DNA of 30,365 bases. Source: Octopus sinensis (lineage: Eukaryota). Below the pieces are notes generated by a model. It made no database searches. It was not told the origin of the DNA and worked only from the letters and a program-made list of their open reading frames with translations. The DNA lies in NCBI RefSeq assembly GCF_006345805.1, contig NW_021832708.1, positions 1 to 30,365 of the forward strand. Direction: 5' to 3'. How positions within the stretch are numbered: position 1 is the stretch's first letter; every line of letters begins with the position of its first letter. Both the position numbers and the translations under genes were made by a program. Positions 1 to 30,365 of this stretch are shown piece by piece.

Positions 1-84
1 ACATGTGTACAATCCACTGTCTTCAATTTCAACATCTTTGATGCGGAGTCCCATCTCCTGGATACAAAACCTCTCCCATGCAAT

Positions 85-3165: not shown

Positions 3166-3292
3166 AAAATAGATGAACATCAATGGAATTTGTATCCTTG
3201 TGGTACCAGTGCCGGTGGCACATAAGAAAACCATCTGAACGTGACCGTAGCCAGTGCCGCAACGACTGGCCTCCATGCTGAGGGCACGTAAC

Positions 3293-3483
3293 AAACACCA
3301 TCCGAGCGTGGCCGTCCGCCAGCCTCGTCTGGCACCTGTGTCGGTGACACATAAGAAAACACCATCCGAGCGTGGCCGTCAGCCAGCCTCGTCTGGCACC
3401 TGTGTCGGTGGCACATAAAAAACACCATCCGAGTGTGGCCGTCTGCCAGCCTCATCTGGCACCTGTGTCGGTGGCACATAAAA
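3293..3483 (+). repeat. 63-64 bp tandem repeat, 3 copies plus diverged upstream copies from about 3205
   Basis: AAACACCATCCGAGYGTGGCCGTC.GCCAGCCTC.TCTGGCACCTGTGTCGGTG.CACATAA recurs at 3293, 3357 and 3420. Confidence 0.9.
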
Positions 3484-4454: not shown

Positions 4455-6597
4455 ATGAGTGAAATGTGTGCTATAAACGATATTTTGAGAACTAGTTTTT
4501 CTAAAAGGGACTTCGATGGGAAAAAATTAATTATAATCGCGGGAGACCAACACCGAATTTACCTAATTTGCGAAGCTACAACTAGAAATTCACGAGACAA
4601 TTTCAGGTTAATTCGTATGAAAAGAAGAAATGGTTAACTGGAAGTGTTGCTCTTAATAAATTATTCTGTTGGCCGTGTTTACTTTTTGGCTTAGAAAAAA
4701 ATGTTTGGAATGATAAAGGCTATGATGATTTAAATAATTTACATATGGCTATGCTAAAGCACGAGCGTTCTCAAAGGCATATAAAATGTTTGATAGACCT
4801 TAAAATATTCGGGAATGTTCGCATAGACTTACAATTAGATGCACGTAAAAATCAAAGCATACAACAGCATAATGAGAAAGTTCGACGAAACAGATCCATT
4901 CTGCAACGATTGATCGATGTTGTTATTTTTTTAGGCCTCCAGGAATTATCGTTTCGGGGTCATTTTGAATCTGAAGGCTCTAATAATCGGGGAAATTATA
5001 AAGAACTCGTTTATTTGATCAGTAAGTATGACAAACAAATGGAAAGTCATTTAGATACAGCTTCTATCTTCACTGGTCTGTCGAACAGAATTCAAAATGA
5101 CTTGATCGAAGCAATTCATAAAGTTATGTTGAATGAGATGCAGAAGGAAATTGACCAAGCTAAGTTTGTTTCTATTCTTGTTGATGAGACATCTGATGTC
5201 TCAGCATCTTCACAACTGTCAACAGTTTTACGTTATGTTACAGAAGACTGTGTGACGAAAGAACGATTTATCGGTTTTAGTGATGTTAGTGCAGATCGAT
5301 CTGCAAATGCTTTATCTGAACATGTTTTTAAATGCATTGAGACGTGGGAATGTGGAAACAAATTGATTGCGCAGACATATGATGGTGCCGCTACAATGGC
5401 AGGACAACTAAATGGGTTACAGGCAAAAGTAAGAAATAAATATGAATGTGCGATCTTTATTCATTGTTGTGCCCATATCCTAAATTTAGTTCTTTCACAA
5501 TCATGCTCTGCTATGAAAGAATGCAAGATATTTTTTTCTACAATAAACGGACTCGGTACATTTTTTACGAAATCACCGAAAAGGACTAATGCATTAGATA
5601 ACATTGTTAAAAAAAGATTTCCGAAAGCAACAGCAACTAGATGGAATTACTCCTCACGTCTTATTATTACCACAAAGGAAAATTATAATTTCATAATCAG
5701 CCTTTTTGAACACACATCATTGAAAATCCTGAAGCATGGGATGATATCACCATAAATTCAGCAATTGGATTCTTACACACTTTAAAAGCTCCTGATTTCT
5801 TATTTTTGTTAGAGGTATTCAGTGACATTTTTTCTTTTACTGACGTCTTATTTAACATACTCCAGAGTAAAAGTCATGACATAGTGTATTGTAAACAGCA
5901 AATAGATAAAACTAGAACTGTACTCGAAAACAAACTTGATAATTTTTCAGTCTTTTATGATAGGTTAGGGGAAAAATATGGAGTCGATGCAGGAATCGGA
6001 ATTCAGAGATCCAAGAATATATCTATTGATCCCCAACGACATTATAGAACGCTTTATAACAAAATTATAAGTACAATAGTTGACCAAATAAAAGCACGAT
6101 ATTCATCCTTAGAAGAGTTTAAATTCATGGAACTTTTGAATTTCAACAAAGTTGATGAGTATTGCAAACAATTTCCTGTGGACTCTTTAGATTCTTTAAG
6201 AACAACTTATGGCAGATTTTTTGATGTAATACGATTACAAAGTGAGCTCAATGTGATGTTTTCAATGAAAGATTTTAAAAAACCAAGTGTAAGTCATTTA
6301 ATGAGTTACATTAACAGCACTGATCTTGTTGAAGCTATGCCAGAACTCTTCAATCTGTGCAAGTTGATTTTGACAATTCCGTCTACCACTGCTTCTGTAG
6401 AGCGATCCTTTTCTGCATTAAGCAGAATTAAAACATACCAAAGAAATGCGACAGGAGAAAGAAGACTGTCTGGGTTAGCACTAATGTCAATTGAAAAAGA
6501 TTTATTACAAGAATTGATGAAAAGAGAAGATTTCTATGAAAATGTGATAGATATATTTGCCCAGAAAGATCGAAGAATTGAATTAATTTATAAATGA
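4455..6597 (+). pseudogene. hAT transposase (ZMYM1/DUF4371-like), frameshifted
   Basis: TTF-type Zn-finger remnant (WLTGS..LFCWPCLLF..KHERSQRH), FRGH..GNYKEL, SNRIQNDLI, catalytic VDETSD and YDGA, HCCAH, TRW, and the hAT dimerisation motif SVERSFSALSRIKTY..RLSGLALMSIE. Indels near 4540-4590 and 5715. Confidence 0.9.
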
Positions 6598-9508: not shown

Positions 9509-12340
<2,832 letters not shown>

Positions 12341-12346
<6 letters not shown>

Positions 12347-12565
12347 AAAAAAGGAAATGAAGAAAATGCTGACAAATAATTGAAGTAATTTAAGTAATTT
12401 AATTAGGTGAAAGTTCTTTTTACCGGTTGCGCATTTGTTATGCTTATCAAAATATTTTGATAAGCATAACAAATGCGCAACCGGTAAAAAGAACTTTCAC
12501 CTAATTAAATTACTTAAATACTTCAATTATTTGTCAGCATTTTCTTCATTTCCTTTTTTATATAT
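12341..12565. repeat. Near-perfect spacerless palindrome with 112-113 bp arms
   Basis: Centre ATCAAAAT|ATTTTGAT at 12453/12454; the arms differ by one 1-nt indel. Confidence 0.95.
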
Positions 12566-12660: not shown

Positions 12661-12857
12661 CATATATTATATAAAAGGGCTTAGTAAAATAAATTACTTT
12701 GCCACATACTGAACTCATTAGAAATAGCAGCTAAAAAAATTTTTTCAGCTATTTCTAATACTTAAAGAAAAATCTCTCTCAGATAGTGTTTGCTCAAACC
12801 AACTCACGAAGGTATGGGGTAAAAGCATTAAAAAAAAAAACAAGTGCAAAGGTTATT

Positions 12858-12909
12858 TGAGAACGTACGTTTCTAGATTGGTCAAATCGACATTTCTTTC
12901 ATCAGCTCA
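12858..12909 (-). ncRNA. Type I hammerhead ribozyme motif, family A copy 1
   Basis: Minus strand reads UGAG-CUGAUGA-A-AGA.aau.GUC.gauuu.GAC.caa.UCU-A-GAA-ACGUACGU-U-CUCA. Stem I UGAG/CUCA continues after an internal loop as AAGG/CCUU. Predicted cut after GUU (12862/12861). Confidence 0.75.
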
Positions 12910-13414
12910 GAACTCCTTGATTCGGATTTGGGAACACCGAAAGTGGGAGCATACCCTTTTGGCTTCTTATCATCTCCTGAGGTCCGCTCGAACTGACAGT
13001 GCTCACAATTCAAAATATGCAAGCCAAGAATTTCTGCTCTCCCCTTTCCACCAGCGTGGGTTAAAATCGGCAAACACTGTTTTATCGGTAAAAACCGAAG
13101 CATTAAACAGAGAGAAATGAATAATAATTTCAACAATTGAGGGTAAATTTAATTAATTATTAATCAATTTCACCAAGTATTCAGTATGTAAAGGGACCTT
13201 TTAAGGCGAATTCAAAATATTACATTATATAAAAGGGCTTAGTAAAATAAATTAATTTGCCACATACTGAACTCATTAGAAATAGCACCTAAAAAAATTT
13301 TTTCAGCTATTTCTAATACTTAAAGAAAATCTCTCTCAGATAGTGTTTGCTCAAACCAACTCACGAAGGTATGGGGTAAAAGCATTAAAAAAAAAAACAA
13401 GTGCAAAGGTTATT

Positions 13415-13466
13415 TGAGAACGTACGTTTCTAGATTGGTCAAATCGACATTTCTTTCATCAGCTCA
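13415..13466 (-). ncRNA. Type I hammerhead ribozyme motif, family A copy 2
   Basis: Identical to copy 1. Confidence 0.75.
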
Positions 13467-13972
13467 GAACTCCTTGATTCGGATTTGGGAACACCGAAAG
13501 TGGGAGCATACCCTTTTGGCTTCTTATCATCTCCTGAGGTCCGCTCGAACTGACAGTGCTCACAAATTCAAAATATGCAAGCCAAGAATTTCTGCTCTCC
13601 CCTTTCCACCAGCGTGGGTTAAAATCGGCAAACACTGTTTTATCGGTAAAAACCGAAGCATTAAACAGAGAGAAATGAATAATAATTTCAACAATTGAGG
13701 GTAAATTTAATTAATTATTAATCAATTTCACCAAGTATTCAGTATGTAAAGGGACCTTTTAAGGCGAATTCAAAATATTACATTATATAAAAGGGCTTAG
13801 TAAAATAAATTAATTTGCCACATACTGAACTCATTAGAAATAGCACCTAAAAAAATTTTTTCAGCTATTTCTAATACTTAAAGAAAATCTCTCTCAGATA
13901 GTGTTTGCTCAAACCAACTCACGAAGGTATAGGGGTAAAAGCATTAAAAAAATCACAAGTGCAATGGTTATT

Positions 13973-14024
13973 TGAGAACGTACGTTTCTAGATTAGTCAA
14001 ATCGACATTTCTTTCGTCAGCTCA
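13973..14024 (-). ncRNA. Type I hammerhead ribozyme motif, family A copy 3 (CUGACGA core)
   Basis: Same fold; the core differs only at the freely variable N7 position. Confidence 0.75.
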
Positions 14025-14052
14025 GAACTCCTTGATTCGGATTTGGGAACAC

Positions 14053-14116
14053 ATATATATATATATATATATACATATTATATATATACATATATATATA
14101 TAATATACATATATAC

Positions 14117-14147
<31 letters not shown>

Positions 14148-14168
14148 CAAATATATATACATATATAC

Positions 14169-14203
<35 letters not shown>

Positions 14204-14230
14204 CGTATATATATATATATATATCTTTAC

Positions 14231-14285
<55 letters not shown>

Positions 14286-14298
14286 CATATATATATAC

Positions 14299-14333
<35 letters not shown>

Positions 14334-14350
14334 CATATATATATACATAT
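14053..14350. repeat. (TA)n/(TACA)n microsatellite between the two arrays
   Basis: Read directly. Confidence 0.95.
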
Positions 14351-14472
14351 AACGATTTAGGAGTGACCCCAACAGGTCACTCGTCCACCAGAAAGAGCAG
14401 CCATAACTCACACCGCCAAGTATTAGTAATTCAGAAATTAGGTGAAAATTTAAAAACATTTACCCTAATTCA

Positions 14473-14574
14473 TCTTTTAGACGTTGCAACGTTTCTGTGT
14501 CATTAATGATTAAATTAGCTTAATTAAATTAAATTAAGCCAATCTACCATAGGTTACACTTCATCAGTAAAAGA
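14473..14574 (-). ncRNA. Type I hammerhead ribozyme motif, family B
   Basis: Minus strand reads UCUUUUA-CUGAUGA-A-GUGU..long stem II..ACAC-A-GAA-ACGUUGCAACGU-C-UAAAAGA; 7-bp stem I, GUC cleavage triplet. Confidence 0.8.
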
Positions 14575-14945
14575 CCTGGGAGAGACAAATATACACGAGG
14601 CGTCTGTATCGATGCCTACGGGATATCTGACTTAAAATTTTCAAGACTGACGTATTCGCGCCAAACTTATCAACAGTAAATATAAACTGCCGATTCAATC
14701 TCAGAATTATTCAGAAAATTATCAATTAGTCAGTTTAGGGTAGCAAAAAAATTCAATAGAAATTTATCGCAACCAGCGGCCTGGTGAAAAAGAGAAAATA
14801 GTCATCGACTAATATATAAATATAACGATTTAGGAGTGACCCCAACAGGTCACTCGTCCACCAGAAAGAGCAGCCATAACTCACACCGCCAAGTATTAGT
14901 AATTCAGAAATTAGGTGAAAATTTAAAAACATTTACCCTAATTCA

Positions 14946-15047
14946 TCTTTTAGACGTTGCAACGTTTCTGTGTCATTAATGATTAAATTAGCTTAATTAA
15001 ATTAAATTAAGCCAATCTACCATAGGTTACACTTCATCAGTAAAAGA
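14946..15047 (-). ncRNA. Type I hammerhead ribozyme motif, family B
   Basis: Identical motif in unit 2. Confidence 0.8.
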
Positions 15048-15419
15048 CCTGGGAGAGACAAATATACACGAGGCGTCTGTATCGATGCCTACGGGATATC
15101 TGACTTAAAATTTTCAAGACTGACGTATTCGCGCCAAACTTATCAACAGTAAATATAAACTGCCGATTCAATCTCAGAATTATTCAGAAAATTATCAATT
15201 AGTCAATTTAGGGTAGCAAAAAAATTCAATAGAAATTTATCGCAACCAGCGGCCTGGTGAAAAAGAGAAAATAGTCATCGACTAAATATATAAATATAAC
15301 GATTTAGGAGTGACCCCAACAGGTCACTCGTCCACCAGAAAGAGCAGCCATAACTCACACCGCCAAGTATTAGTAATTCAGAAATTAGGTGAAAATTTAA
15401 AAACATTTACCCTAATTCA

Positions 15420-15520
15420 TCTTTTAGACGTTGCAACGTTTCTGTGTCATTAATGATTAAATTAGCTTAATTAATTAAATTAAGCCAATCTACCATAGGT
15501 TACACTTCATCAGTAAAAGA
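15420..15520 (-). ncRNA. Type I hammerhead ribozyme motif, family B
   Basis: Same motif with a 1-nt deletion at the tip of stem II. Confidence 0.8.
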
Positions 15521-15890
15521 CCTGGGAGAGACAAATATACACGAGGCGTCTGTATCGATGCCTACGGGATATCTGACTTAAAATTTTCAAGACTGACGTA
15601 TTCGCGCCAAACTTATCAACAGTAAATATAAACTGCCGATTCAATCTCAGAATTATTCAGAAAATTATCAATTAGTCAATTTAGGGTAGCAAAAAAATTC
15701 AATAGAAATTTATCGCAACCAGCGGCTGGTGAAAAAGAGAAAATAGTCATCGACTAAATATATAAATATAACGATTTAGGAGTGACCCCAACAGGTCACT
15801 CGTCCACCAGAAAGAGCAGCCATAACTCACACCGCCAAGTATTAGTAATTCAGAAATTAGGTGAAAATTTAAAAACATTTACCCTAATTC

Positions 15891-15991
15891 ATTTTAGACG
15901 TTGCAACGTTTCTGTGTCATTAATGATTAAATTAGCTTAATTAAATTAAATTAAGCCAATCTACCATAGGTTACACTTCATCAGTAAAAGA
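15891..15991 (-). ncRNA. Type I hammerhead ribozyme motif, family B (shortened stem I)
   Basis: Core intact; 2-nt deletion in the 3' strand of stem I. Confidence 0.7.
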
Positions 15992-16643
15992 CCTGGGAGA
16001 GACAAATATACACGAGGCGTCTGTATCGATGCCTACGGGATATCTGACTTAAAATTTTCAAGACTGACGTATTCGCGCCAAACTTATCAACAGTAAATAT
16101 AAACTGCCGATTCAATCTCAGAATTATTCAGAAAATTATCAATTAGTCAATTTAGGGTAGCAAAAAAATTCAATAGAAATTTATCGCAACCAGCGGCCTG
16201 GTGAAAAAGAGAAAATAGTCATCGACTAAATATATAAATATAACGATTTAGGAGTGACCCCAGGTCACTCGTCCACCAGAAAGAGCAGCCATAACTCACA
16301 CCGCCAAGTATTAGTAATTCAGAAATTAGGTGAAAATTTAAAAACATTTACCCTAGGTGGACGAGTGACCTGTTGGGGTCACTCCTAAATCGTTATATTT
16401 ATATATTTAGTCGATGACTATTTTCTCTTTTTCACCAGGCCGCTGGTTGCGATAAATTTCTATTGAATTTTTTTGCTACCCTAAATTGACTAATTGATAA
16501 TTTTCTGAATAATTCTGAGATTGAATCGGCAGTTTATATTTACTGTTGATAAGTTTGGCGCGAATACGTCAGTCTTGAAAATTTTAAGTCAGATATCCCT
16601 AGGCATCGATACAGACGCCTCGTGTATATTTGTCTCTCCCAGG

Positions 16644-16745
16644 TCTTTTACTGATGAAGTGTAACCTATGGTAGATTGGCTTAATTTAATTTAATTAAGC
16701 TAATTTAATCATTAATGACACAGAAACGTTGCAACGTCTAAAAGA
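16644..16745 (+). ncRNA. Type I hammerhead ribozyme motif, family B (inverted block)
   Basis: TCTTTTA 16644-16650, CTGATGA 16651-16657, GAAAC 16723-16727, GTC 16736-16738, TAAAAGA 16739-16745. Confidence 0.8.
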
Positions 16746-17113
16746 TGAATTAGGGTAAATGTTTTTAAATTTTCACCTAATTTCTGATTACTAATACTTG
16801 GCGGTGTGAGTTATGGCTGCTCTTTCTGGTGGACGAGTGACCTGTTGGGGTCACTCCTAAATCGTTATATTATATATTTAGTCGATGACTATTTTCTCTT
16901 TTTCACCAGGCTGCTGGTTGCGATAAATTTCTATTGAATTTTTTTGCTACCCTAAATTGACTAATTGATAATTTTCTGAATAATTCTGAGATTGAATCGG
17001 CAGTTTATATTTACTGTTGATAAGTTTGGCGCGAATACGTCAGTCTTGAAATTTTAAGTCAGATATCCCGTAGGCATCGATACAGACGCCTCGTGTATAT
17101 TGTCTCTCCCAGG

Positions 17114-17214
17114 TCTTTTACTGATGAAGTGTAACCTATGGTAGATTGGCTTAATTTAATTAATTAAGCTAATTTAATCATTAATGACACAGAAACGTTG
17201 CAACGTCTAAAAGA
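17114..17214 (+). ncRNA. Type I hammerhead ribozyme motif, family B (inverted block)
   Basis: CTGATGA 17121-17127, GTC 17205-17207, stems intact. Confidence 0.8.
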
Positions 17215-17585
17215 TGAATTAGGGTAAATGTTTTTAAATTTTCACCTAATTTCTGAATTACTAATACTTGGCGGTGTGAGTTATGGCTGCTCTTTCTGGT
17301 GGACGAGTGACCTGTTGGGGTCACTCCTAAATCGTTATATTTATATATTTAGTCGATGACTATTTTCTCTTTTTCACACGGCCGCTGGTGCGATAAATTT
17401 CTATTGAATTTTTTTGCTACCCTAAATTGACTAATTGATAATTTTCTGAATAATTCTGAGATTGAATCGGCAGTTTATATTTACTGTTGATAAGTTTGGC
17501 GCGAATACGTCAGTCTTGAAAATTTTAAGTCAGATATCCCGTAGGCATCGATACAGACGCCTCGTGTATATTTGTCTCTCCCAGG

Positions 17586-17686
17586 TCTTTTACTGATGAA
17601 GTGTAACCTATGGTAGATTGGCTTAATTTAATTTAATTAAGCTAATTTAATCATTAATGACACAAAACGTTGCAACGTCTAAAAGA
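17586..17686 (+). ncRNA. Hammerhead motif family B, defective (G12 missing)
   Basis: ACACAAAACGTT instead of ACACAGAAACGTT; mutation or sequencing error. Confidence 0.6.
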
Positions 17687-17905
17687 TGATTAGGGTAAAT
17701 GTTTTTAAATTTTCACCTAATTTCTGAATTACTAATACTTGGCGGTGTGAGTTATGGCTGCTCTTTCTGGTGGACGAGTGACCTGTTGGGGTCACTCCTA
17801 AATCGTTATATTTATATATTTAGTCGATGACTATTTTCTCTTTTTACACCAGGCCGCTGGTTGATAAATTTCTATTGAATTTTTTTGCTACCCTAAATTG
17901 ACTAA

Positions 17906-17936
17906 CATATATATATACATATATATCTATATATAC

Positions 17937-17975
<39 letters not shown>

Positions 17976-18427
17976 ATTCATATATTATAAATATACATAT
18001 ATATTATACATATTATATATATATACATATATATATATATTACATATATATACATATACATATACATATAAACATATACATATATACATATACATATATA
18101 TATACATATACATATATACATATACATATATACATATACATATATATATACATATACATATATATATATACACATACATATATATATATACATATACATA
18201 TATATATATATACATATACATATATACATATACATATACATATATACATATACATATACATATATACATATACATATACATATATACATATACATATATA
18301 TATATACATATACATATATATATATACATATACATATATACATATATACATATACATATATCATATACATATATACATATACATATATATATATACATAT
18401 ACATATATACATATACATATATATATA

Positions 18428-18460
<33 letters not shown>

Positions 18461-18645
18461 ATACATATACATATACATATATACATATACATATACATAT
18501 ATACATATACATATATACATATACATATATACATATATACATATACATATATACATATATATATACGTATACATATATACATATATATATACATATATAT
18601 ACATATATACATATATATATATATGCATATATATATATATTATAC

Positions 18646-18678
<33 letters not shown>

Positions 18679-18713
18679 CATATATATATATATTACATAT
18701 AATATATATATAC

Positions 18714-18760
<47 letters not shown>

Positions 18761-19083
18761 CATATATTATATATACATATATATATACATATACATATAT
18801 ATATATACATATACATATATATATATACATATACATATATTATATACATATACATATAGATATATACATATATATATATACATATACATATATACATATA
18901 CATATATATATATATACACATATACATATATACATATACATATATATATATACACATATATATATATATACATATACATATATATATATACACATATATA
19001 TATACACATATATATATATATACACATATATATATATATATACACATATATATATATATACACATATATATATATATATACAC

Positions 19084-19114
<31 letters not shown>

Positions 19115-19209
19115 CACATATATATATATACATACACATATATACATATACATATACACATATATATATACATATACATATATACATATACATATACATA
19201 TATACATAT
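17906..19209. repeat. (TA)n/(TACATA)n compound microsatellite
   Basis: Read directly. Confidence 0.95.
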
Positions 19210-19299
19210 AAAAAATTTAAAAAAAAAAAAAATATTACTTATTTTGTTATCATTAGTGTTCTTTCAAACAGAAAATAATAATATATCTATGTGTATGTA

Positions 19300-19704: not shown

Positions 19705-20380
19705 TTCTCCCCTCTCTCTCTCTCTCTGTCTGTCTCTTCAGTTTCTCTCACTCACGCTTCTCCTTGTCTCTTCATAGCTCTCATTCTATCTTACTCCCCT
19801 CTTTCAAATATATATTCTCTCTATATTTCTTCCTTCTCTCCCTCTATCTCTTCAGTTCTCTCCCGCTTCTCTTGTCTCTCCATTACTCTCTTCTATCTCT
19901 TCAGTTTCTCTCCCGCTTCTCCTTGTCTCTCCATTTCTCTCTTCTAACTTACTCTCCTCTCTCGGATACATATAAGGACATAGACGCTCTCTCTCTCTTC
20001 CTTCAGCTCTCGGTCTCTCCCCTTCCTCTTCTCTCTTACTCTCGGCTCCCAATTTCTCCTTAAGTACATAGACGCTCCCTTTCTCTTCTAACTTACTCTC
20101 CTCTCTCGGATACATATAAGGACATAGACGCTTTCTCTCTCTTCCTTCAGCTCTCAGTCTCTCCTCTTCCTCTTCTCTCTTACTCTCGGCTCCCAATTTC
20201 TCCTTAAGTACATAGACGCTCCCTTTCTCTACTTTCTCCCTACCCCCTATTGCACTATTAGATTAATATAAATTAATATAATATAATATAATATAATTCC
20301 TCCCTTCCTCACAATCACAATCTCTTCCTCTCTCCTCCCTTCTCCCTTTTTCCCTCACAGCTTCTCTCTCTCTCCCCGCT
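19705..20380 (+). repeat. CT-rich low-complexity region with a 144-bp tandem duplication; possibly the 5' UTR of the downstream LINE
   Basis: CTTCTAACTTACTCTCCTCTCTCGGATAC at 19941 and 20085. Confidence 0.8.
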
Positions 20381-20388
20381 ACAACGGA

Positions 20389-21321
20389 ATGGACAACATG
20401 CAAAAATTAGAGGTGAATGCAAACACTGGCGTCAACAAAAGCCAGCGTAACTGGACGAAAGTAGAGCTGGAAGTTTTCATCAGAGGATGGAGCTCGGCCG
20501 ACAGATCGCAACCAACTAAAAACATAGCGGCGACCCTGAAAAGCCATGGCTTTATGAGGACGTTGGCGCAAGTAGAGAGGAAGAAAAGAGAAGTCGAAAG
20601 GGCCTACACTCTCATTGCACCACACATGGCTTTGCTAAGCCAAGTCCTCAAGGTGGACAAAGACAAAGAGAGAGAGATGGAAACAGGAAACACCAACCAC
20701 AGAGTGTCAAAAAATGACACGCCCACTGCCACAGTTGAAGAAGGCAAGCAGGGCAAACAACAGATAGGCGGCGATGGGGAAACAGAAAATAACCACCCGG
20801 ATGAAAAGACCTATGCAGAAAGGAACCAGTGGACAACCGTCCAACGGAGGAAGAAAAAACAGAGAGGAACTGGGGACAAGAAAACCCAGATAACATGCAA
20901 ATTCTTCCGGAATGGAACCTGCTGGCATGGAGAAACAGGGGAAGGATGCAGGTTCGCTCATCCCAGGCCCTATGGAAATTGCATCAAACCCACTCGACCA
21001 AAATGCCTTAACCAAAACCAGAACAAATACAAGCTGCCCCAGAAATATGCAGACATAGTGCGTAATGCCCCAACAAGAAGGCGCACATTTGCAGAGGAAA
21101 TGCAGACGGCGGCAGCAGAACAAAGAAATTTTGTGGAAATGGCAGAGAAAATTGTGGGACAACTGGCCTGGATACATCGTCTTCAGAGCCAGGGGCACTC
21201 ACAACAGCACTCAAGACCACCACAATCAAGGGACCCAGGGTGGCCACCGCTGACGCCGGCCCAGGTGCCACACCGTCAGCCTTTATTGACACCCCGGGTG
21301 TCTCACCAGTGCTTCTGCTGA
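20389..21321 (+). CDS. LINE ORF1 protein: N-terminal Myb/SANT (trihelix)-like domain plus CCCH zinc finger
   Basis: Open 310-aa ORF; RNWTKVELEVFIRGW..IAATLKSHGFMRTLAQVERK; CKFFRNGTCWHGETGEGCRFAH (C-x7-C-x8-C-x3-H); homologous ORF in element B. Confidence 0.8.
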   Translation: MDNMQKLEVNANTGVNKSQRNWTKVELEVFIRGWSSADRSQPTKNIAATLKSHGFMRTLAQVERKKREVERAYTLIAPHMALLSQVLKVDKDKEREMETGNTNHRVSKNDTPTATVEEGKQGKQQIGGDGETENNHPDEKTYAERNQWTTVQRRKKKQRGTGDKKTQITCKFFRNGTCWHGETGEGCRFAHPRPYGNCIKPTRPKCLNQNQNKYKLPQKYADIVRNAPTRRRTFAEEMQTAAAEQRNFVEMAEKIVGQLAWIHRLQSQGHSQQHSRPPQSRDPGWPPLTPAQVPHRQPLLTPRVSHQCFC

Positions 21322-24251
21322 ATGTCAGAGGTCTGGTGAAACCCACTAATATGGGTAAAATTCCTTACCTTAGGGACTTGAGCACAAGCAACCATGCAAT
21401 ATGCATAGCGCTGACTGAAACGCACCTGTCAAGCAGTATAGCAGATGCAGAAATACACATACCGAAGTATACTGTTTTCGGGTCGGACAGGAAGGAAAGA
21501 ACTCATGGTGGGGTTGCCCTGTACGTCCGTGAAGATGTCACACCCATAGTACTGTTGACACACTCAACTCAGTCTGTGACACACTGATAGTACACATGAA
21601 ACAACCGAAAATAGTAATATGTGTCACATATCGGCCACCAGACACCCCTAGTCATGAAGGAGTGTTTGAAGATAGCCTCAGAAGAATAGAAGAAGTCCTG
21701 GACAAACTGGACCAGGGTAACACCATTCTACTGCTGGGAGATTTTAACCTTCCGAAAGTCAAATGGCCAGATGGCCATCTCCTCCCTGGAATGACATCAC
21801 TTGAACAGAGACAGAGAGTCCTTGTTGGCTCTCACACGCAAGTTTTTCATGGAGCAAGCAGTGCTTTGGCCAACAAGAGGTGAGAATGTCTTGGACCTCT
21901 GTTTCACAAGCAACCCGATGCTCATCCACAACATAATGGTAACACCAACAATTCTCTCAGACCACAACTTAGTAGAGGTAATGATATATGGTATGAGAGA
22001 GTTATTGAGACGCAGCCATTAGAAAATACCACAGGCCTATCCAGTCTAAACTCCATAAGGCAAACTGGAAGAAGATCAACGAAGAGATCCGAAAACATGA
22101 CTGGAGTGACTTCATCACCACACAAGACACCAACACACATTTCCAACATTTCATGACAACAATACAGAACATATGCCATAAGTTTGTCCCGGAGAAAAAA
22201 GCCAGCGGGCATAGGAACGTTATTCCCAGAGACAGGAAAATACTTATGAGGCGAAGAGCTAAGCTCTCGAAGCAACTGAATGCACGGCAGAGAAACAATG
22301 AGGGACTCCACCTGAAACTTTTTGAAACGGAAACTGCACTCAAACTTTCCTATGAGAAGGAGAGGGCAGAGAGAGAAGCCAGGGCCATAGAGAATATTAA
22401 AACAAACCCTAAAGCCTTCTTTAATTTGCGAAAGAAACCACCTCAGTACACTGCAAGATTGGCCCACTCTTTGATAAAAAGGGCTCTCTAACTGAGGACC
22501 CCCAAGGGATAAGTGAAATACTAAAGGAACAGTATAAAAGTGTGTTCACATCCCCTCTGGGGCACATGCAAATCACAAACCCAGAAGTTTTCTTTGGCCA
22601 CAACACTCCAAAACCAAACAACAACCATCGACCACATAGACATAACAGAGAGGGATGTAATATCTGCCATAGAAGAAATGAGAATAAACTCAGCTGCTGG
22701 ACCAGATGGATCCCAGCAGTCCTCCTAAAGACATGCAGGCATGCCCTAGCGGGACCACTGAAGAGCTCTTCAGTGGTTCCTTGGCTAACGGTAACTGCCC
22801 AGGGCGCTAAAAGAAGGCACCATATGCCCTATCCACAAAGGAGGGAGTAGAGCAGAGGCCAAAAACTACAGGCCAGTCTCCCTGACGTCACACATAAGTA
22901 AGGTCATGGAACGAATCATCAGAAAAAAACTGATCACGTTCCTCGAAGAAACTAACCGTCTCACTGACACACAGCATGGCTTTCGCCCAGGAAGAAGCTG
23001 CCTTACGCAGCTGTTACAACACTACGACTGGGTACTGAAACAACTACTGGATCGCTCACAGGTAGATGTGGTATATCTCGACTTTGCGAAGGCCTTTGAC
23101 AAAGTCGACCACGGAGTGATATGTCACAAATTACTCAGACTCGGCATAACAGGAAAAGTAGGTGAGTGGATACATGACTTCCTGAAGGACAGAAGCCAGA
23201 TGGTTGCAGCCAATGGAGCCCTCTCGGGAAAGACACCAATAGCAAGCGGGGTGCCACAGGGCACAGTCTTGGGACCCTTGCTGTTTTTGGTGGCGCTCTC
23301 TGACATGCCCTTGGTAGCACAAACAACATCCCTCACTAGCTATGCTGATGACACAAAGGTAGCACAGGCAATCAAAAACCCAGCTGATGCTGACCTTTTA
23401 CAACAAGATCTGGATGCCATATACAAATGGGCTGAAGACAACAACATGCAATTTAATGCTGGTAAATTTCAAGCCTTACAATATCAGCTGTAAACACATA
23501 TACATTACAACACAACTATACTGGTCCAGGAGGGATCGAAATCCCAGTATCGAAATCAATACGGGACCTGGGGATAGACATGAGTGACGATGCATCTTTT
23601 TCTTCACACATCGCGAAGGTGGCGACAATGTGCAGACGACTCACTGACTGGATCCTGAGGACATTCCGGACAAGAGACTGCGAGACCATGTTGACACTAT
23701 GGAGGACATTTGTCCTAAGCCGCCTGGACTACTGCTCCCAACTGTGGTCACCGCATAGTGTCAAACCAACCACAGAGCTTGAGACAATCCAAAGACATTT
23801 CACCAAGAGGATTTCCACCATGAAAGAAAAGAACTATTGGGAGAGGCTTAGGGAACTCAATTTGTACTCCTTGGAACGAAGACGAGAGAGATATGCAGTG
23901 ATATACATATGGAAAATCCTGGAGGGACTAGCACCAAATTTTGGAATTGAGAGCTGTTCCAATCCCCGTACAGGACGTCACTGTGTGGTGCCAAAGGTCC
24001 CGTCTTCCACATCCAGGGTAAGGAGCAGATACTGTAATAGCCTGGGGTTCAGGGGCCCTCAGCTGTTCAACAAACTGCCAAGAAAACTAAGAGATCTACA
24101 TGATGCGGATGTGGACATTTTCAAAAAACATCTAGACAAGCTGCTTTCCGGGATCCCAGATGAACCCACTGCAAGGTACGAAGGTAACCTAAGGGCAGCA
24201 GCTACAAACTCTCTCTTAGATCAGTGGCCAGCCACGGCAAACTGGACTTAG
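21240..24251 (+). pseudogene. LINE ORF2 (APE endonuclease plus reverse transcriptase), frameshifted
   Basis: LLNVRGL, LTETHL, GGVALY, YRPP, GDFNLP, LDLCFT, SDHNLV; NYRPVSLTS, QHGFRPGRSC, YLDFAKAFDKVDH, GVPQGTVLGPLLF, YADDTK; CR1-type C-terminus LDYCSQLWSP..YWERL..LYSLERRR. Confidence 0.92.
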
Positions 24252-25262: not shown

Positions 25263-28240
25263 TCATGGAGGCTTTCTAGCAACTGCTATTTGGTGCATGA
25301 GAGAGTTCGATGCAGCTGCCCTCATCTGCCCCTCCTGCCGTGAAGTTGGTTCATCTGGGACACCTGACAGAAAGATCCAGCTTCATTTTAAAGACTCCTT
25401 ATCCACCCCATGCAGGTCTCTCAGGTTCTTCGGGGGATATTGAAGAGCTGTGGGCCTCGGAAGCCCAGGCTATCACAGTATCTTGTCCTACATCTTGATG
25501 GCAGTTTGGAGTCCTAGGCACCACGCAGTGGCGCCCAGTTCTGGCATTTGCGTAACTCTCGATGCCAAAGTTCAGGACTTCCCTCCAGGATCTTCCAGAT
25601 GTATATTATGGCATATCTTTCCCGCCTACCTCCAGGGATATAATTTTAATCTCTTGAGTCTTTCCGTAGCTTACATTCTGCATAGAGGCTATCTTCTTTG
25701 TGTAGCTTCGTTGGATCGCCTCAAGTTCTGTGATCAACTTGACACTGGATGGTGACCATAGCTGAGAGCAATAGTCAAAGTGGCTTAGGACAAGTGTCTT
25801 CCAGAGGACCATCATGGTTTCTTGTTCTCTTGTTCTAAAGGTTCTAAGAATCCATCCAGCCAGCCGTCTACATTTCATTGTCAGTTTAGCAACATGTACA
25901 TGAAAGGTCGCGTCCACTCATGTGAATACCCAGGTCACGCACTGATTGTGCCTCTGGGATTGCAATCCCTCCGGGTCCAGTGTATTCATTGGGTATTGCA
26001 TTCAGCTTTGCATGCTGATAGTATAAAGCTTGAAACTTTCCAGCATTGAACTGCATGCTATTCTTTTCAGCCCACTTGTATATTCGTCGTCCAGCTCACA
26101 TTGCAGGTGTTTAGTGTCCTCAGGGTTCTGTATTGCCTGTGAAACTTTTGTATCATCTGCATAACTTGTGATCGTGGCTCTCTGCGTGGCTGAGGGCATG
26201 TCTGAGAGGGCCATTATGAACAGTAGTGGTCCCAGAACAGTGCCCTGCGGAACACCGCTCACTATTTGTGTGTAATGGAGGTGGCCCCATTGGCTACTAC
26301 CACCCTGACTTCTATCCTTCAGAAAGTCATGAAGCCATTCTCCCAGTTTTCCAACTATGTTGAGATCCGCAGTTTGTGACATATCATTCCATGATCGACT
26401 TTATCAAAGGCCTTTGCAAAGTCGAGATATATCATCTTCCACATTTGAGTGGTTGAGCAGCCGTTTCAGCACCCAGTCATAGTGTTGTAGGAGCTGAGTT
26501 AAACAGCTTCTCCCTGGTCGGAAACCATGTTGGGTGTCGGGAAGCAAGTCATTCTCTTCAAGGAAGGTGATCAGCTTCCTTCTGACTATTCGTTCCATGA
26601 CCTTGCTGATGTGTGAGGTCAGAGAGATAGGTCTATAGTTCTTGGCTTCCGCTCTTGCTACCTCCTTTATGAATGGGGCATATTTAGCTTCCTTCAGTTT
26701 TCCTGGAAGTTTGCCAGCTGCAAGGAAGCTCTGAAAGAGGAACTGCAGTGGTCTTGCTAGGACTCTCTTACATGCTTTTAGGAGGATTGCCGGGAATCCA
26801 TCGGGGCCAGTAGCTGAGTCTGTTTTCATTTCATCTATAGCCTTGGTTACATCGTCGTCTCCTTTATATCGATGTAATCTATCGTCGCCGCCTCTGATTT
26901 TATATCTGCAGTGGTAAAAAAGTTAGTTGGATTGGTGATTTGGAGATGCCCAAGGGGTGGAGTGAAAACACTCTTGAATTGCTCATTCAGTATTTCACTT
27001 ACCCTCATTGGTTTTCCTGTAAGTGTGCCATCCTTTTCGAGGAGTGGCCCTATTCTACAGTGCACTGTAGCTGTTTCTTTGGCATACCTGTAGAAAGCTC
27101 TGGGGTTAGATTTTATGTTTTCTATAGCCCAGGCTTCTTTGTCTGCTCTTTCTTTTTCATGGGAGAGTTGCAGACATTTTTCGATTTCCAACAGTTTTAT
27201 TTTTAGGCGGGACTTTTCACTGCTTTCAATCTGTTTGTTTAGGCGATTTGAAAATTTCGTACGCCGTCTCATTAAAATTTTCCTCTCTCTGGGGATTTTG
27301 TTCTTGTGTACAGTGGCCTTTCTCTCTGGGACACATTTGTAGCATATGGCTTGCATTACAGACATGAATTGTTGAAGTTTCACGTCGATGTCTGGCGAGG
27401 AGAGACATTTAGGCCAGTTTTGTTTGAGGATCTCTTTCTCAATTTGTTTCCAGTTTGCCTTATGGTAGTTCAAGCTGGAAAGATTTTGAGGGTTTCTTGT
27501 AGGCTGCATGTCCGTGCTCTCTTTTGCCGTACATGGTCAGCTCTATCATGTTGTGATCCGAGAGTAGTGTCGGTGTCACTTTCACATTATGGATGAGATC
27601 CATGTCATTTGTGAAGCAGAGATCCAGTGTGTTACCTGCCCTGGTTGGTTGGAGTATTACCTGCTCCATGTACAGGGTGTTGAGGGTTCAGGAGGACCTC
27701 GCCTGTCCTCGTTCACATCTTGTCATTCCTGGGAGAGAAAGGCCCTCGGGCCATCTGACATTGGGCAGATTGAAGTCTCCCATAACAAGCACACCTATGT
27801 GTTGTTCTAATGTGGTTAGAACTTCTATTTTTATAAGGCAGTCTTCAACTTGCCCACATGGCTTGGGCATCTGGAGGGCGATATGTAGCACACACAACTA
27901 CATCAAGTTGCCTAATATGTACAATTAGTGTGTCACACACCGAGTTTGAGTATGACAAGAGGACCTGGGGTGTGAGGTCCTCACGGATGTACATAGCAAC
28001 ACCTCCATGACTCCTTTCTTTCCTGTCGTTCCGTAGTACAGCATACTGTGGTATGTGTAACTCCGCATCTGCTATGTCCGGTTTCAGGTGCGTTTCTGTA
28101 AGTGCTATGCATAAGGCTTGATTGCATGCAACAAAGTCTCTCAGGAACGGGATCTTTGTCCTGTTACTGAGTGTTTGCAGTCCTCTGATGTTCAGTAGGA
28201 GTATCGAGGTGAGGTGTACGTTGTTGCCGGCGGTGTCCAT
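25263..28240 (-). pseudogene. LINE ORF2 (APE endonuclease plus reverse transcriptase), frameshifted
   Basis: Fragments LLLNIRGL/LTETHL/YRPP, GDFNLP, LDLCFT/SDHN, NYRPISLTS/QHGFRPGRSC, GVPQGTVLGP/YADDTK, FDYCSQLWSP. Confidence 0.92.
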
Positions 28241-29105
28241 CCTGTGTCTGTTTGCTGTGGTGGTCTGTTATATAGTGGGTAGTCCCACCTGTGGGCTTGG
28301 GTTTGATGAAGCCAGGTCAGCTGCTGTACAATCTTTTGTGCCATGCACAAAAAAGATTGTTGCTCAGCAGCTGCTCTTTCGACAACATCATGTTGGCTGT
28401 TTGTGCGCGCACAACATCTGCGTACCTCCGCTTTGGGGCAGGTGGTGCGTGGTCCATCCCTTTTCTTTGTGTTGATGGTTTGTCCATCTGCCTCGTGTCT
28501 CTGTGGCAGGGTCCCCGATGTGCAAAGCGGCAGCCTGCACCTTCCTTTCCATGCCAGCAGGAACCTCTCAGGTAGAACATACCCACCCTGTGCGCTGTTT
28601 GGTTCCATCCTTTGCGGTTCCACTTCTATTTCTGGTTGTTTCATTCATCTTTGGTCCTGCTTGAGCTTTTTCTTTTCCTTTAGCTCTTCCAGTCCTTCTT
28701 TTAGTACTTCTTCTCCCTCTACTCTACCTCTTCACCGGTTCTCCGTCTCCATGGCCCTGGCTGCCGGTTGGAGAACTTGCACCTGGGTTCACTTCCGGGC
28801 AGGTTTCTCATTCAAAACCTCCTCCCGGGCGTCCACCAGGTGGGGGTGACTTCTTTCATCGTCTCCATTCTTGCCATCTTTGCTCCGCTCGTTCTCAAAG
28901 ATGGCATCAAGTGCGCCAATGTGTGACCGTACAAGCGCATATAAGCGCACGAATTCCTGTCTCTTTCGCTCCATCTGAGCCGCTGTCCTCTTGTAGCCTC
29001 TGCTCTTCAGCGCAGCCGCAATCACCTCCTAGGCTATCTCCGCCGGCGCACCCCCATGCTCGTACGAATAATCCAGCTCTCGTCACGTCTCCATGCTCTG
29101 GACAT
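28192..29105 (-). pseudogene. LINE ORF1 (Myb/SANT-like plus CCCH finger), frameshifted
   Basis: IAAALKSRGYKRTAAQMERKRQE, FYLRGSCWHGKEGAGCRFAH and AAAEQQSFLCMAQKIVQQLTWLH align with element A ORF1. Confidence 0.8.
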
Positions 29106-29164
29106 GCTGGATAATCCGTCTATCCGTTTATCTATCTAATTATGTTCGAGAGAAGACAGGAAGA

Positions 29165-30250
29165 TATTAAGGCTAATTAGAAGATAGAGTACTTGAAAAA
29201 GAAATATTAACAATATTAAAGTTTGTGTAAAAACGTTATTTGGGTAAAAACGTTATTTAATCTTAAGGCTAATTAGGGGATAGAGTATCTGAAAATGTAT
29301 TAGCAATATTAATATTATATTAGAGTGTGGGTAGAAAAAAAAACAAAAAAAAAAACGTTATTTAATCTTAAGGCTAATTTGGAGATAGAGTATCTGAAAA
29401 TATATTAGCAAAATTAATATTATATTAGAGTGTGGGTAATATTAAACGTTATTTAATTTAATCTTAAGGCTAATTAGAAGACAGAGTATCTGAAAAATTA
29501 TATATACAATATTTAGCAATATTAACCGTTAATTTAATCTTAAGGCTAATTAGACGTTATTAATATTAAACGTTATTTAATTTAATCTTAAGGCTAATTA
29601 GAAGATAGAGTATCTGAAAATATATTAGCAATATTAATATTATATTAGAGTGTGGATAAAAACGTTATTTAATCTTAAGGCTAATCAGGAGATAGAGTAT
29701 CAGAAAATATATTAGCAATGTTAATATTATATTAGAGTGTGGGTAATATTAAACGTATTTAATTTAATCTTACTTAAGCTAATTAGAAGATAGAGTATCT
29801 GAAGAATTATTAACAATATTAAAACAATATTAAACGTTATTTAATTTAATCTTAAGGCTAATTAACAGTAATTATTAACAATATTAAACAATGTTAAACG
29901 TTATTTAATTTAATCCTAAGGCTAATTAACAATAATTATTAACAATATTAAACGTTATTTAATTTAATCCTAAGGCTAATTAGACGTTTTTAATATTAAA
30001 CGTTATTTAATTTAATCTTAAGGCTAATTAGAAGATAGAGTATCTGAAAATTATTAACAATTTAAAACAATATTAACGTTATTTAATTTAATCTTAAGGC
30101 TAATTAACAATAATTATTAACAATATTAAACAATATTGAACGTTATTTAATTTAATCCTAAGGCTAATTTAAGGTATGACGGTATCAATATTAAACGTTA
30201 TTTAATTTAATATTAAGGCTAATTAGAAGATAGAGTATCTGGAAAATTAT
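29165..30250. repeat. AT-rich modular minisatellite, possibly the 5' UTR of element B
   Basis: Recurring modules TAAGGCTAATT, AGAAGATAGAGTATCTGAAAA, AATATTAAACGTTATTTAAT and TATTAGAGTGTGG in variable order. Confidence 0.85.
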
Positions 30251-30365
30251 TATATCGAGAACAGATATTGAAAATGTAAACAAACAAAATGACGATCGCA
30301 ACTTTAACTAAGATGTGGACCTAAGTGAAAGATAAAATAGAATAATAAATAAAATATGAAATAGA

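What the first reader, a model, noticed from the sequence alone, without database searches (positions are those of the whole stretch)
16651..16727. Both hammerhead families share a non-canonical A.A junction at the base of stem II
Seen: family B reads CUGAUGA-A-GUGU...ACAC-A-GAAA and family A reads CUGAUGA-A-AGA...UCU-A-GAAA. Established: canonical hammerheads have a Watson-Crick pair (usually G10.1-C11.1) here. Inference: the same deviation in two unrelated families suggests a tolerated lineage-specific variant that strict descriptor searches would miss, possibly with attenuated cleavage.
Basis: partly seen in the sequence, partly recalled or inferred. Interest (0 to 1): 0.75.

Follow-up and report, generated by a model that had tools for sequence, protein, structure and literature searches.

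The report
Relaxed hammerhead base pair in retrozymes
Two unrelated jumping repeats in this animal genome carry hammerhead RNA motifs with an A-A mismatch where a base pair normally sits, but their relatives show U-U, A-U, A-C or G-C at the same spot, so the pair is simply optional here and the RNAs likely still cut themselves (not yet tested).

Summary
Both tandem repeats (473-bp family B, 557-bp family A; unrelated outside the core) carry type I hammerheads with A opposite A at positions 10.1/11.1. It is not a shared A.A motif. Genome-wide, B's clan is A-U in 2450 and A.A in 864 of 4674 matches; A's clan is U.U in 1975 and A.A in 1072 of 4041. Across 54 motif clusters, 10.1-11.1 pairs no more often than chance (25 vs 27.6 expected), while the next pair holds in 52 of 54. 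G-C is about 17-20% of 21,203 matches. The state flips at least 6-7 times per clan. The elements are young non-LTR retrozymes in (TA)n tracts. Locus-wide shared variants suggest copying from a monomer, so cleavage is likely but unshown; a cut-site footprint test was not significant. A U.U mismatch at this place in a cleaving axolotl retrozyme is already published. Rfam misses paired relatives too. The scan noted the two-armed insertions and phage hammerheads mismatched at this pair before, on other DNA. Verdict: a modest new variant of a known kind, and a good natural mutant series for kinetics.

The parts
16643..16746 (+). Family B type I hammerhead (type copy): stem I 16643-16650/16739-16746, core C3-A9 16651-16657, stem II 16658-16722, G12-A14 16723-16725, stem III 16726-16737, predicted cut after C17 at 16738
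   Evidence: (hammerhead fold 0.7 kcal/mol above MFE for the 17121 copy, one base shorter in the distal loop)
16658..16658 (+). A10.1, 5' side of the A.A mismatch
   Evidence: register from relatives
16722..16722 (+). A11.1, 3' side of the A.A mismatch (U in the sister subfamily L128)
16659..16721 (+). Rest of stem II: 4 bp GUGU/ACAC, 5x5 internal loop, long distal hairpin (-22.4 kcal/mol, z -6.2)
14339..16355 (-). Family B left arm: 4.3 tandem 473-bp units, ribozyme on the minus strand (C3 at 14567, 15040, 15513, 15984); 3' end at unit position 141 against (TA)n
16356..17905 (+). Family B right arm: 3.3 units (C3 at 16651, 17121, 17593; the last lacks G12); 3' end at unit position 227 against (TA)n
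12666..14052 (-). Family A array: about 2.5 units of 557 bp, three hammerheads (C3 at 12905, 13462, 14020), between (TA)n tracts; the 14020 copy differs from the other two
13415..13466 (-). Family A type I hammerhead (type copy): 4-bp stem I, A10.1 at 13455, A11.1 at 13431, 3-bp proximal stem II, 2-bp palindromic stem III, predicted cut after U17 at 13419 (GUU)
14053..14351 (.). (TA)n-type microsatellite between the two insertions; further tracts at 9509-12347 and 17905-19210

Best explanation
The A.A is a one-by-one mismatch at the first pair of stem II (10.1/11.1) in type I hammerheads of two unrelated tandem repeat families, one of several states (A-U, U.U, A.A, A.C, G.U, G-C) that this position takes across the genome, and these ribozymes likely still cleave because the rest of the stem holds the fold. 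Shown: register, frequencies, repeated flips on trees, conservation of neighbouring pairs, young dispersed two-armed insertions with fixed 3' ends. Inferred: 10.1/11.1 serves mainly as a stacking platform under the sheared A9.G12 pair, so three or more pairs behind it make up for a mismatch. C at 10.1 is likely excluded because it would pair with the general base G12. Rates are likely lower than for G-C, and family A likely needs a dimer. Cut monomers would circularise and be reverse-transcribed in trans, probably by a Penelope-like element, into tandem arms in (TA)n. The state drifts, mostly one step from A-U, and the match between A and B is convergence.
For: Register: where the two bases can pair, the helix runs one pair longer than when both are skipped; B's sister subfamily has A-U. 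Counts: clan B A-U 2450, A.A 864 of 4674; clan A U.U 1975, A.A 1072 of 4041; G-C 4318 of 21,203 general matches, 1740 of 10,094 on the forward strand. In 54 clusters: 10.1-11.1 paired 25 (27.6 expected if independent), 10.2-11.2 52 (22.8 expected), 10.3-11.3 49; C10.1 in 0 of 54. B alignment: 10.1-11.1 unpaired in 9 of 15 rows, next two pairs 15 of 15 with 4 and 3 two-sided changes. Trees with both positions masked: 6 changes in 41 rows, 7 in 32. Youth: 33 of 40 scored hits are 100% identical over all 141 bp, on many contigs. Monomer bottleneck: in 35 multi-unit B loci, 164 variants are shared by all units, 10 of them private to a locus yet on both arms, against 16 partial variants seen at other loci. 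Precedent: axolotl HHR_Amex2, U.U at the base of helix II, 22% cleavage in 1 h as monomer, better as dimer, circular RNA in vivo. The 7-deaza change at G10.1 costs about 30-fold.
Against: No cleavage was measured and no RNA ends were seen. Arm 5' ends are not clearly enriched at the cut site: B 12 of 79 in unit positions 1-45 against 8.0 expected (p 0.10; 11 against 6.2, p 0.043, in one of four windows tried); A 4 of 80 against 6.2. Some family A arrays are mosaic (window, L084, L208), which fits multimer templates or template switching. Locus-wide variants could also come from gene conversion or from already uniform source arrays. The position is not wholly free: A.A (14) and U.U (11) outnumber A.C (2) and A.G (2), and G.A is absent (biased, related sample). 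The family A monomer fold is 3.4 kcal/mol above its MFE and ends in GUU. No autonomous partner was identified.
Confidence: 0.68

Rival explanations
1. Mismatch-bearing families have dead or nearly dead ribozymes and spread as passengers, copied from uncut multimeric transcripts or cut in trans by co-expressed paired relatives.
For: No significant cut-site footprint; mosaic family A arrays; G10.1-C11.1 is called highly conserved in PLE minimal hammerheads; PLE hammerheads cleave poorly in vitro.
Against: In mismatched clusters 10.2-11.2 and 10.3-11.3 stay paired in 28 of 29 each, with two-sided changes between A.A subfamilies (GUGU/ACAC, GCGU/ACGC, UCUA/UAGA). Family B insertions look copied from one unit. 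The axolotl U.U ribozyme is active.
Confidence: 0.15
2. The mismatch is selected: an unpaired 10.1/11.1 tunes cleavage down so that circles stay intact, and lineages move between A.A and U.U while avoiding strong pairs.
For: 75% of clan A matches are A.A or U.U (3047 of 4041). U.U arises at least three times on the clan A tree. G-C is reachable in clan A (four-copy array at G000:C3:126331135) but stays rare.
Against: Clan B is mostly A-U (2450 of 4674), and G-C families with thousands of matches coexist (4178). The observed states lie mostly one mutation from A-U, as drift in an AT-rich repeat would give. Copy counts reflect a few bursts, not independent events.
Confidence: 0.12
3. A.A is a specific structural element: a non-canonical A.A pair, or in family B the known bulged A after A9, then G10.1-C11.1, then a new extra A before G12.
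For: Family B has G-C just inside the two As; an unpaired nucleotide between 9 and 10.1 is conserved in PLE minimal hammerheads and present in CChMVd; A.A recurs in several sublineages.
Against: Family A has A-U, not G-C, inside the As. Other clan B subfamilies have U-A there. The two outer bases pair in register in relatives. A.A is a minority in both clans.
Confidence: 0.05

Closest known systems
HHR_Amex2 of the axolotl retrozyme Rtz_353 (Cervera and de la Pena 2020, PMC7229834; seen: passages, sections 14 and 15; supplement not readable)
   Same: Type I hammerhead in a tandem non-coding repeat, 2-bp stem III with tetraloop, mismatch at the base of helix II.
   Different: U.U in one family there, with cleavage and circular RNA shown. 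Here A.A, U.U, A.C and paired states recur across many families, units are longer (473, 557 bp), stem II is extended, and cleavage is untested.
Animal non-LTR retrozymes (PMC7229834; Li et al. preprint 10.64898/2026.07.22.740005, seen: parts 1-2 of 5)
   Same: Tandem low-GC units with one type I hammerhead each, dispersed in thousands of copies; lengths fall in the 51-972 bp range of the preprint.
   Different: Two-armed head-to-head insertions with two fixed 3' ends in (TA)n were not in the parts I read. The preprint's pipeline uses canonical and minimal descriptors; whether they allow a 10.1/11.1 mismatch was not seen.
Minimal hammerheads of Penelope-like elements (Cervera and de la Pena 2014, PMC4209133; seen: parts 1-2 of 4, no figures)
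   Same: Type I, palindromic short stem III, longer helix II, predicted dimer activity; tandem and inverted arrangement typical of PLEs (PMC8557442, passages).
   Different: Their consensus has an unpaired base between 9 and 10.1 and a conserved G10.1-C11.1. Here there is no bulge and the pair itself is relaxed. A motif of the classic kind does occur in this genome (L078).
CChMVd (+) hammerhead with extra A10 (PMC1636495; seen: passages)
   Same: An extra A follows A9, with a moderate loss of rate.
   Different: A one-sided bulge before an intact G-C pair, not a symmetric mismatch.

Membership tests
Type I hammerhead ribozyme | Core CUGANGA and GAAA around a three-way junction, open at stem I | tested here: met
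Type I hammerhead ribozyme | Stems I, II, III with compensatory changes among relatives | tested here: met
   (stem III ends were imposed by the search pattern; stem II was not imposed in clan B)
Type I hammerhead ribozyme | NUH triplet at the cut site | tested here: met
   GUC in B, GUU in A; the rule itself is recalled
Type I hammerhead ribozyme | Watson-Crick pair at 10.1-11.1 (quasi-conserved, not invariant) | tested here: not met
   A.A in the window; published exception; called quasi-conserved
Type I hammerhead ribozyme | Loop 1-loop 2 tertiary contact | not tested
   Internal loops in stem II are candidates only
Type I hammerhead ribozyme | Site-specific self-cleavage | not testable with these tools
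   Indirect only: favours it, not significant
Rfam hammerhead families | Gathering score of a curated model | tested here: not met
   No hammerhead hit at E<=1 in the window; 0 hits in 6 loci, including G-C and A-U relatives
Non-LTR retrozyme | Tandem low-GC repeat with a type I hammerhead in each unit | tested here: met
   (GC 0.33-0.35)
Non-LTR retrozyme | No protein coded | tested here: inconclusive
   no frame of 100 aa inside the B arms apart from microsatellite overlaps; two stop-to-stop frames of 124-130 aa antisense to A were not scanned against Pfam
Non-LTR retrozyme | Dispersed multi-copy mobile family | tested here: met
Non-LTR retrozyme | Expressed as circular and linear monomer RNA | not testable with these tools
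   Only contigs of runs not on record as RNA were available
Non-LTR retrozyme | Mobilised by an autonomous Penelope-like element | not tested
   No partner search was completed; by eye none of the 70 longest of 80 frames listed looked like a PLE protein, and they were not scanned
PLE minimal hammerhead (Cervera 2014 consensus) | Unpaired base between 9 and 10.1 plus G10.1-C11.1 | tested here: not met
   Register test

The most novel reading that the evidence does not exclude
Retrozymes of this lineage have released the 10.1-11.1 pair across dozens of families and use it as an evolvable rate dial: homo-mismatches (A.A, U.U) are selected to slow cleavage and protect the circular intermediate, and most active hammerheads of this genome lack the G-C pair regarded as quasi-conserved.
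Probability: 0.15. Interest if true: 0.62.

Novelty: new variant of a known kind. Interest (0 to 1): 0.36.

Why it matters
It loosens the hammerhead consensus: in one animal genome about 80% of some 21,000 motif matches lack a G-C directly at 10.1-11.1, and mismatches there are common, so searches that demand that pair will undercount retrozymes. Near-identical natural sisters with A-U, A.A, A.C and U.U (L103, L189, L197, L199) form a ready mutant series to measure what this pair is worth in a full-length ribozyme. It is not a new ribozyme class or a special A.A motif.

Tried and rejected
Bulge-plus-G-C reading of family B: rejected by register. Common origin of A and B: no similarity outside the core. 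Cut-site footprint in arm 5' ends: not significant. RNA evidence: no RNA holder listed; contigs of X1, X3, X9, X16 cover the units but cannot show ends, and the go-back joints fit tandem DNA as well as circles; not used as evidence. Rfam: only spurious microRNA hits on the AT tracts. My 100-row hand tally gave 12 G-C, below the whole-genome 25-29%, so whole counts are used. The search for an autonomous Penelope partner was not completed. Stem II inversion as a route from A.A to U.U: rejected, since the interior keeps its orientation. Literature: 9 searches showed no report of an A.A at 10.1/11.1 or of these families in the listings and passages I read; that is weak evidence of absence. Lunse et al. 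2017 on small PLE hammerhead variants, Nelson and Uhlenbeck 2008 and Tuschl and Eckstein 1993 were not held, and the figures and supplements of the Cervera papers were not seen; any of them may already show this mismatch. PMC9901934 passages gave no value for this pair.

Full report
Observation. The window is contig C9179 of G000, a 2.72-Gb genome whose repeats look animal; any closer taxon is my guess and comes from no test here. At 16651 the plus strand reads CUGAUGA, A16658, GUGU, a long hairpin, ACAC, A16722, GAAAC, then a palindromic stem III and a GUC triplet, closed by an 8-bp stem I. This type I hammerhead lies in a 473-bp unit arranged as 4.3 copies on the minus strand and 3.3 on the plus strand. 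Six of 7 copies have the full core with A.A; the 17593 copy lacks G12. A 557-bp repeat at 12666-14052 carries three minus-strand hammerheads, 3 of 3 with A.A, a 2-bp stem III and a GUU triplet. Outside the core the two units are unrelated (score 32, shuffle mean 33.6, 118 of 200 shuffles as high).

Register. The two As could be a bulged A before G10.1-C11.1 plus an extra A, since a bulge after A9 is conserved in PLE minimal hammerheads (PMC4209133). Relatives decide against this. Where the two outer bases can pair, the helix runs one pair longer than when both are skipped, and B's sister subfamily L128 has A-U in front of the same GUGU/ACAC. So the As are 10.1 and 11.1, a one-by-one mismatch.

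Genome-wide state. Clan B: 4674 matches, A-U 2450, A.A 864, other 1360. Clan A: 4041 matches, U.U 1975, A.A 1072, other 994; my hand tally of the first 100 rows gave U.U 58, A.A 27, A-U 10, G.U 3, G-C 1, C.A 1. The clan A pattern misses 2 of the window's 3 A copies, which carry a private change in stem II. Reversed controls were 0. A general pattern gave 7020 and 14,183 matches for short and long stem II against 414 and 292 controls. Direct G-C accounts for 140 and 4178 of these: 20% overall and 17% on the forward strand, because one G-C family is counted twice on the reverse strand. Matches are copies from a few bursts, not independent events, and the patterns impose the core.

Pair-by-pair test. 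From 220 fetched loci, 175 distinct motifs fell into 59 clusters; 5 with a poor stem I were dropped. In the 54 left, 10.1-11.1 paired in 25 (27.6 expected from independent letters), 10.2-11.2 in 52 (22.8 expected), 10.3-11.3 in 49. C never stood at 10.1; G stood at 11.1 twice. The loci were chosen partly for A.A and for variety, and clusters were split by state, so frequencies are biased, but the contrast between neighbouring pairs is large. In a 15-row clan B alignment 10.1-11.1 failed in 9 rows, while the next two pairs held in all 15 with 4 and 3 two-sided changes. Trees with the two positions masked need 6 changes in clan A (41 rows from 86 usable loci) and 7 in clan B (32 rows from 91); one clan B change is a single-base deletion in one copy (L020), and some rows have truncated flanks. 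A.A recurs in several multi-copy sublineages of clan B. In contigs of four coded runs U was the majority letter at clan A's 10.1; these are depth sums over contigs, so only a hint.

The elements. Arm 3' ends fall at two fixed unit positions: 71 of 75 in B (139-146 or 224-240; 46 loci given) and 75 of 80 in A (191-207 or 286-295; 43 loci given). Two-armed insertions mostly use one of each. 56 of 71 B 3' flanks are TA-rich (no control was run). Tandem and inverted arrangement and (TA)n targeting are PLE traits (PMC8557442), and animal retrozymes are argued to be non-autonomous PLE derivatives. Earlier scan notes described such two-armed insertions in other genomes; I tested the fixed ends here. 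The partner PLE was not identified.

Are the A.A ribozymes alive? For: B is very young (33 of 40 scored hits identical over all 141 bp). In 35 of 43 B loci with multi-unit cover, 164 variants are shared by all units of an insertion, 18 of them private to the locus and 10 of those on both arms; 85 are partial, 69 of them private and nearly all single-unit. This suggests each insertion was copied from one unit, as from a circle, which would need cleavage. For A (39 of 43 loci) the figures are 273, 21, 10, 89 and 70. The B hammerhead fold lies 0.7 kcal/mol above the MFE. The axolotl U.U ribozyme cleaves. Against: 5' ends are not clearly enriched at the cut site (B 12 of 79 against 8.0, p 0.10; A 4 of 80 against 6.2), which a circular template would also give but which proves nothing; some A arrays, including the window's, are mosaic; the A monomer fold is weak; no RNA data were available.

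Mechanism. In crystal structures A9 forms a sheared pair with G12 next to a standard G10.1-C11.1 pair (PMC11300833, passage), and G10.1 N7 helps bind a metal, whose removal costs about 30-fold (PMC6795133, passages). I infer that 10.1/11.1 is mainly a stacking platform; with three or more pairs behind it a mismatch is affordable, at some cost in rate. A10.1 keeps N7 and U10.1 does not, yet U.U is common. I infer that C10.1 is excluded because it could pair with G12; that an inverted C-G pair is harmful is recalled from Tuschl and Eckstein 1993, not read here. The excess of A.A and U.U over other mismatches is unexplained and keeps a selected-attenuation reading open.

Comparison and verdict. 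It works like an animal non-LTR retrozyme hammerhead, closest to axolotl HHR_Amex2. It is not a PLE minimal hammerhead by the 2014 consensus. Rfam finds neither these nor paired relatives, so the A.A is not what hides them from Rfam. Papers seen: PMC4209133 parts 1-2 of 4; PMC7229834 passages and sections 14-15; preprint 10.64898/2026.07.22.740005 parts 1-2 of 5; passages only of PMC3088659, PMC6765202, PMC544870, PMC2837043, PMC9901934, PMC11300833, PMC6795133, PMC1636495, PMC8557442. Figures were not seen, nor the Cervera supplements or Lunse 2017; they may hold prior A.A cases. New variant of a known kind; interest 0.36.

Noticed in passing
window 12346-12565: Near-perfect inverted repeat (arms about 105-120 bp) in the (TA)n tract; a 95-96% copy, also inverted, lies in L073. 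It looks like a short two-armed insertion of a third family without a hammerhead portion.
   Followed up: partly
window 14339-17905 and 89 loci: Two fixed 3' end sites per family, about 90 nt apart, one per arm, both in AT-rich unit segments: suggests double priming on one template.
   Followed up: partly
window 12666-14052: The family A array is mosaic: the 14020 unit matches the genome's major variant, the other two share private changes. The cut triplet is GUU, common in clan A.
   Followed up: partly
window 17593-17679 and 15888-15984: One B copy lacks G12; another has a 2-nt deletion in stem I. Decay or assembly error.
   Followed up: no
L078:1500-1545: Classic PLE-type minimal hammerhead with a bulged A and G10.1-C11.1; 2 of the first 100 rows.
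   Followed up: no
G000:C3:126331135-126332864: Four-copy clan A array with canonical G-C at 10.1-11.1: a natural control.
   Followed up: no
window 1-3027, 20287-24251, 25444-28644: Broken endonuclease and reverse-transcriptase frames of LINE-like elements; named from recalled motifs, not scanned.
   Followed up: no
window 4586-6597: Two frames (389 and 295 aa) that resemble a split hAT-type transposase; recalled resemblance, not scanned.
   Followed up: no
window 29132-30252: AT-rich irregular repeats, 13 copies of a 75-nt motif with variable spacing; unexplained.
   Followed up: no
window 3283-3483: 63-bp tandem, 3.2 copies, just behind the first LINE-like element.
   Followed up: no
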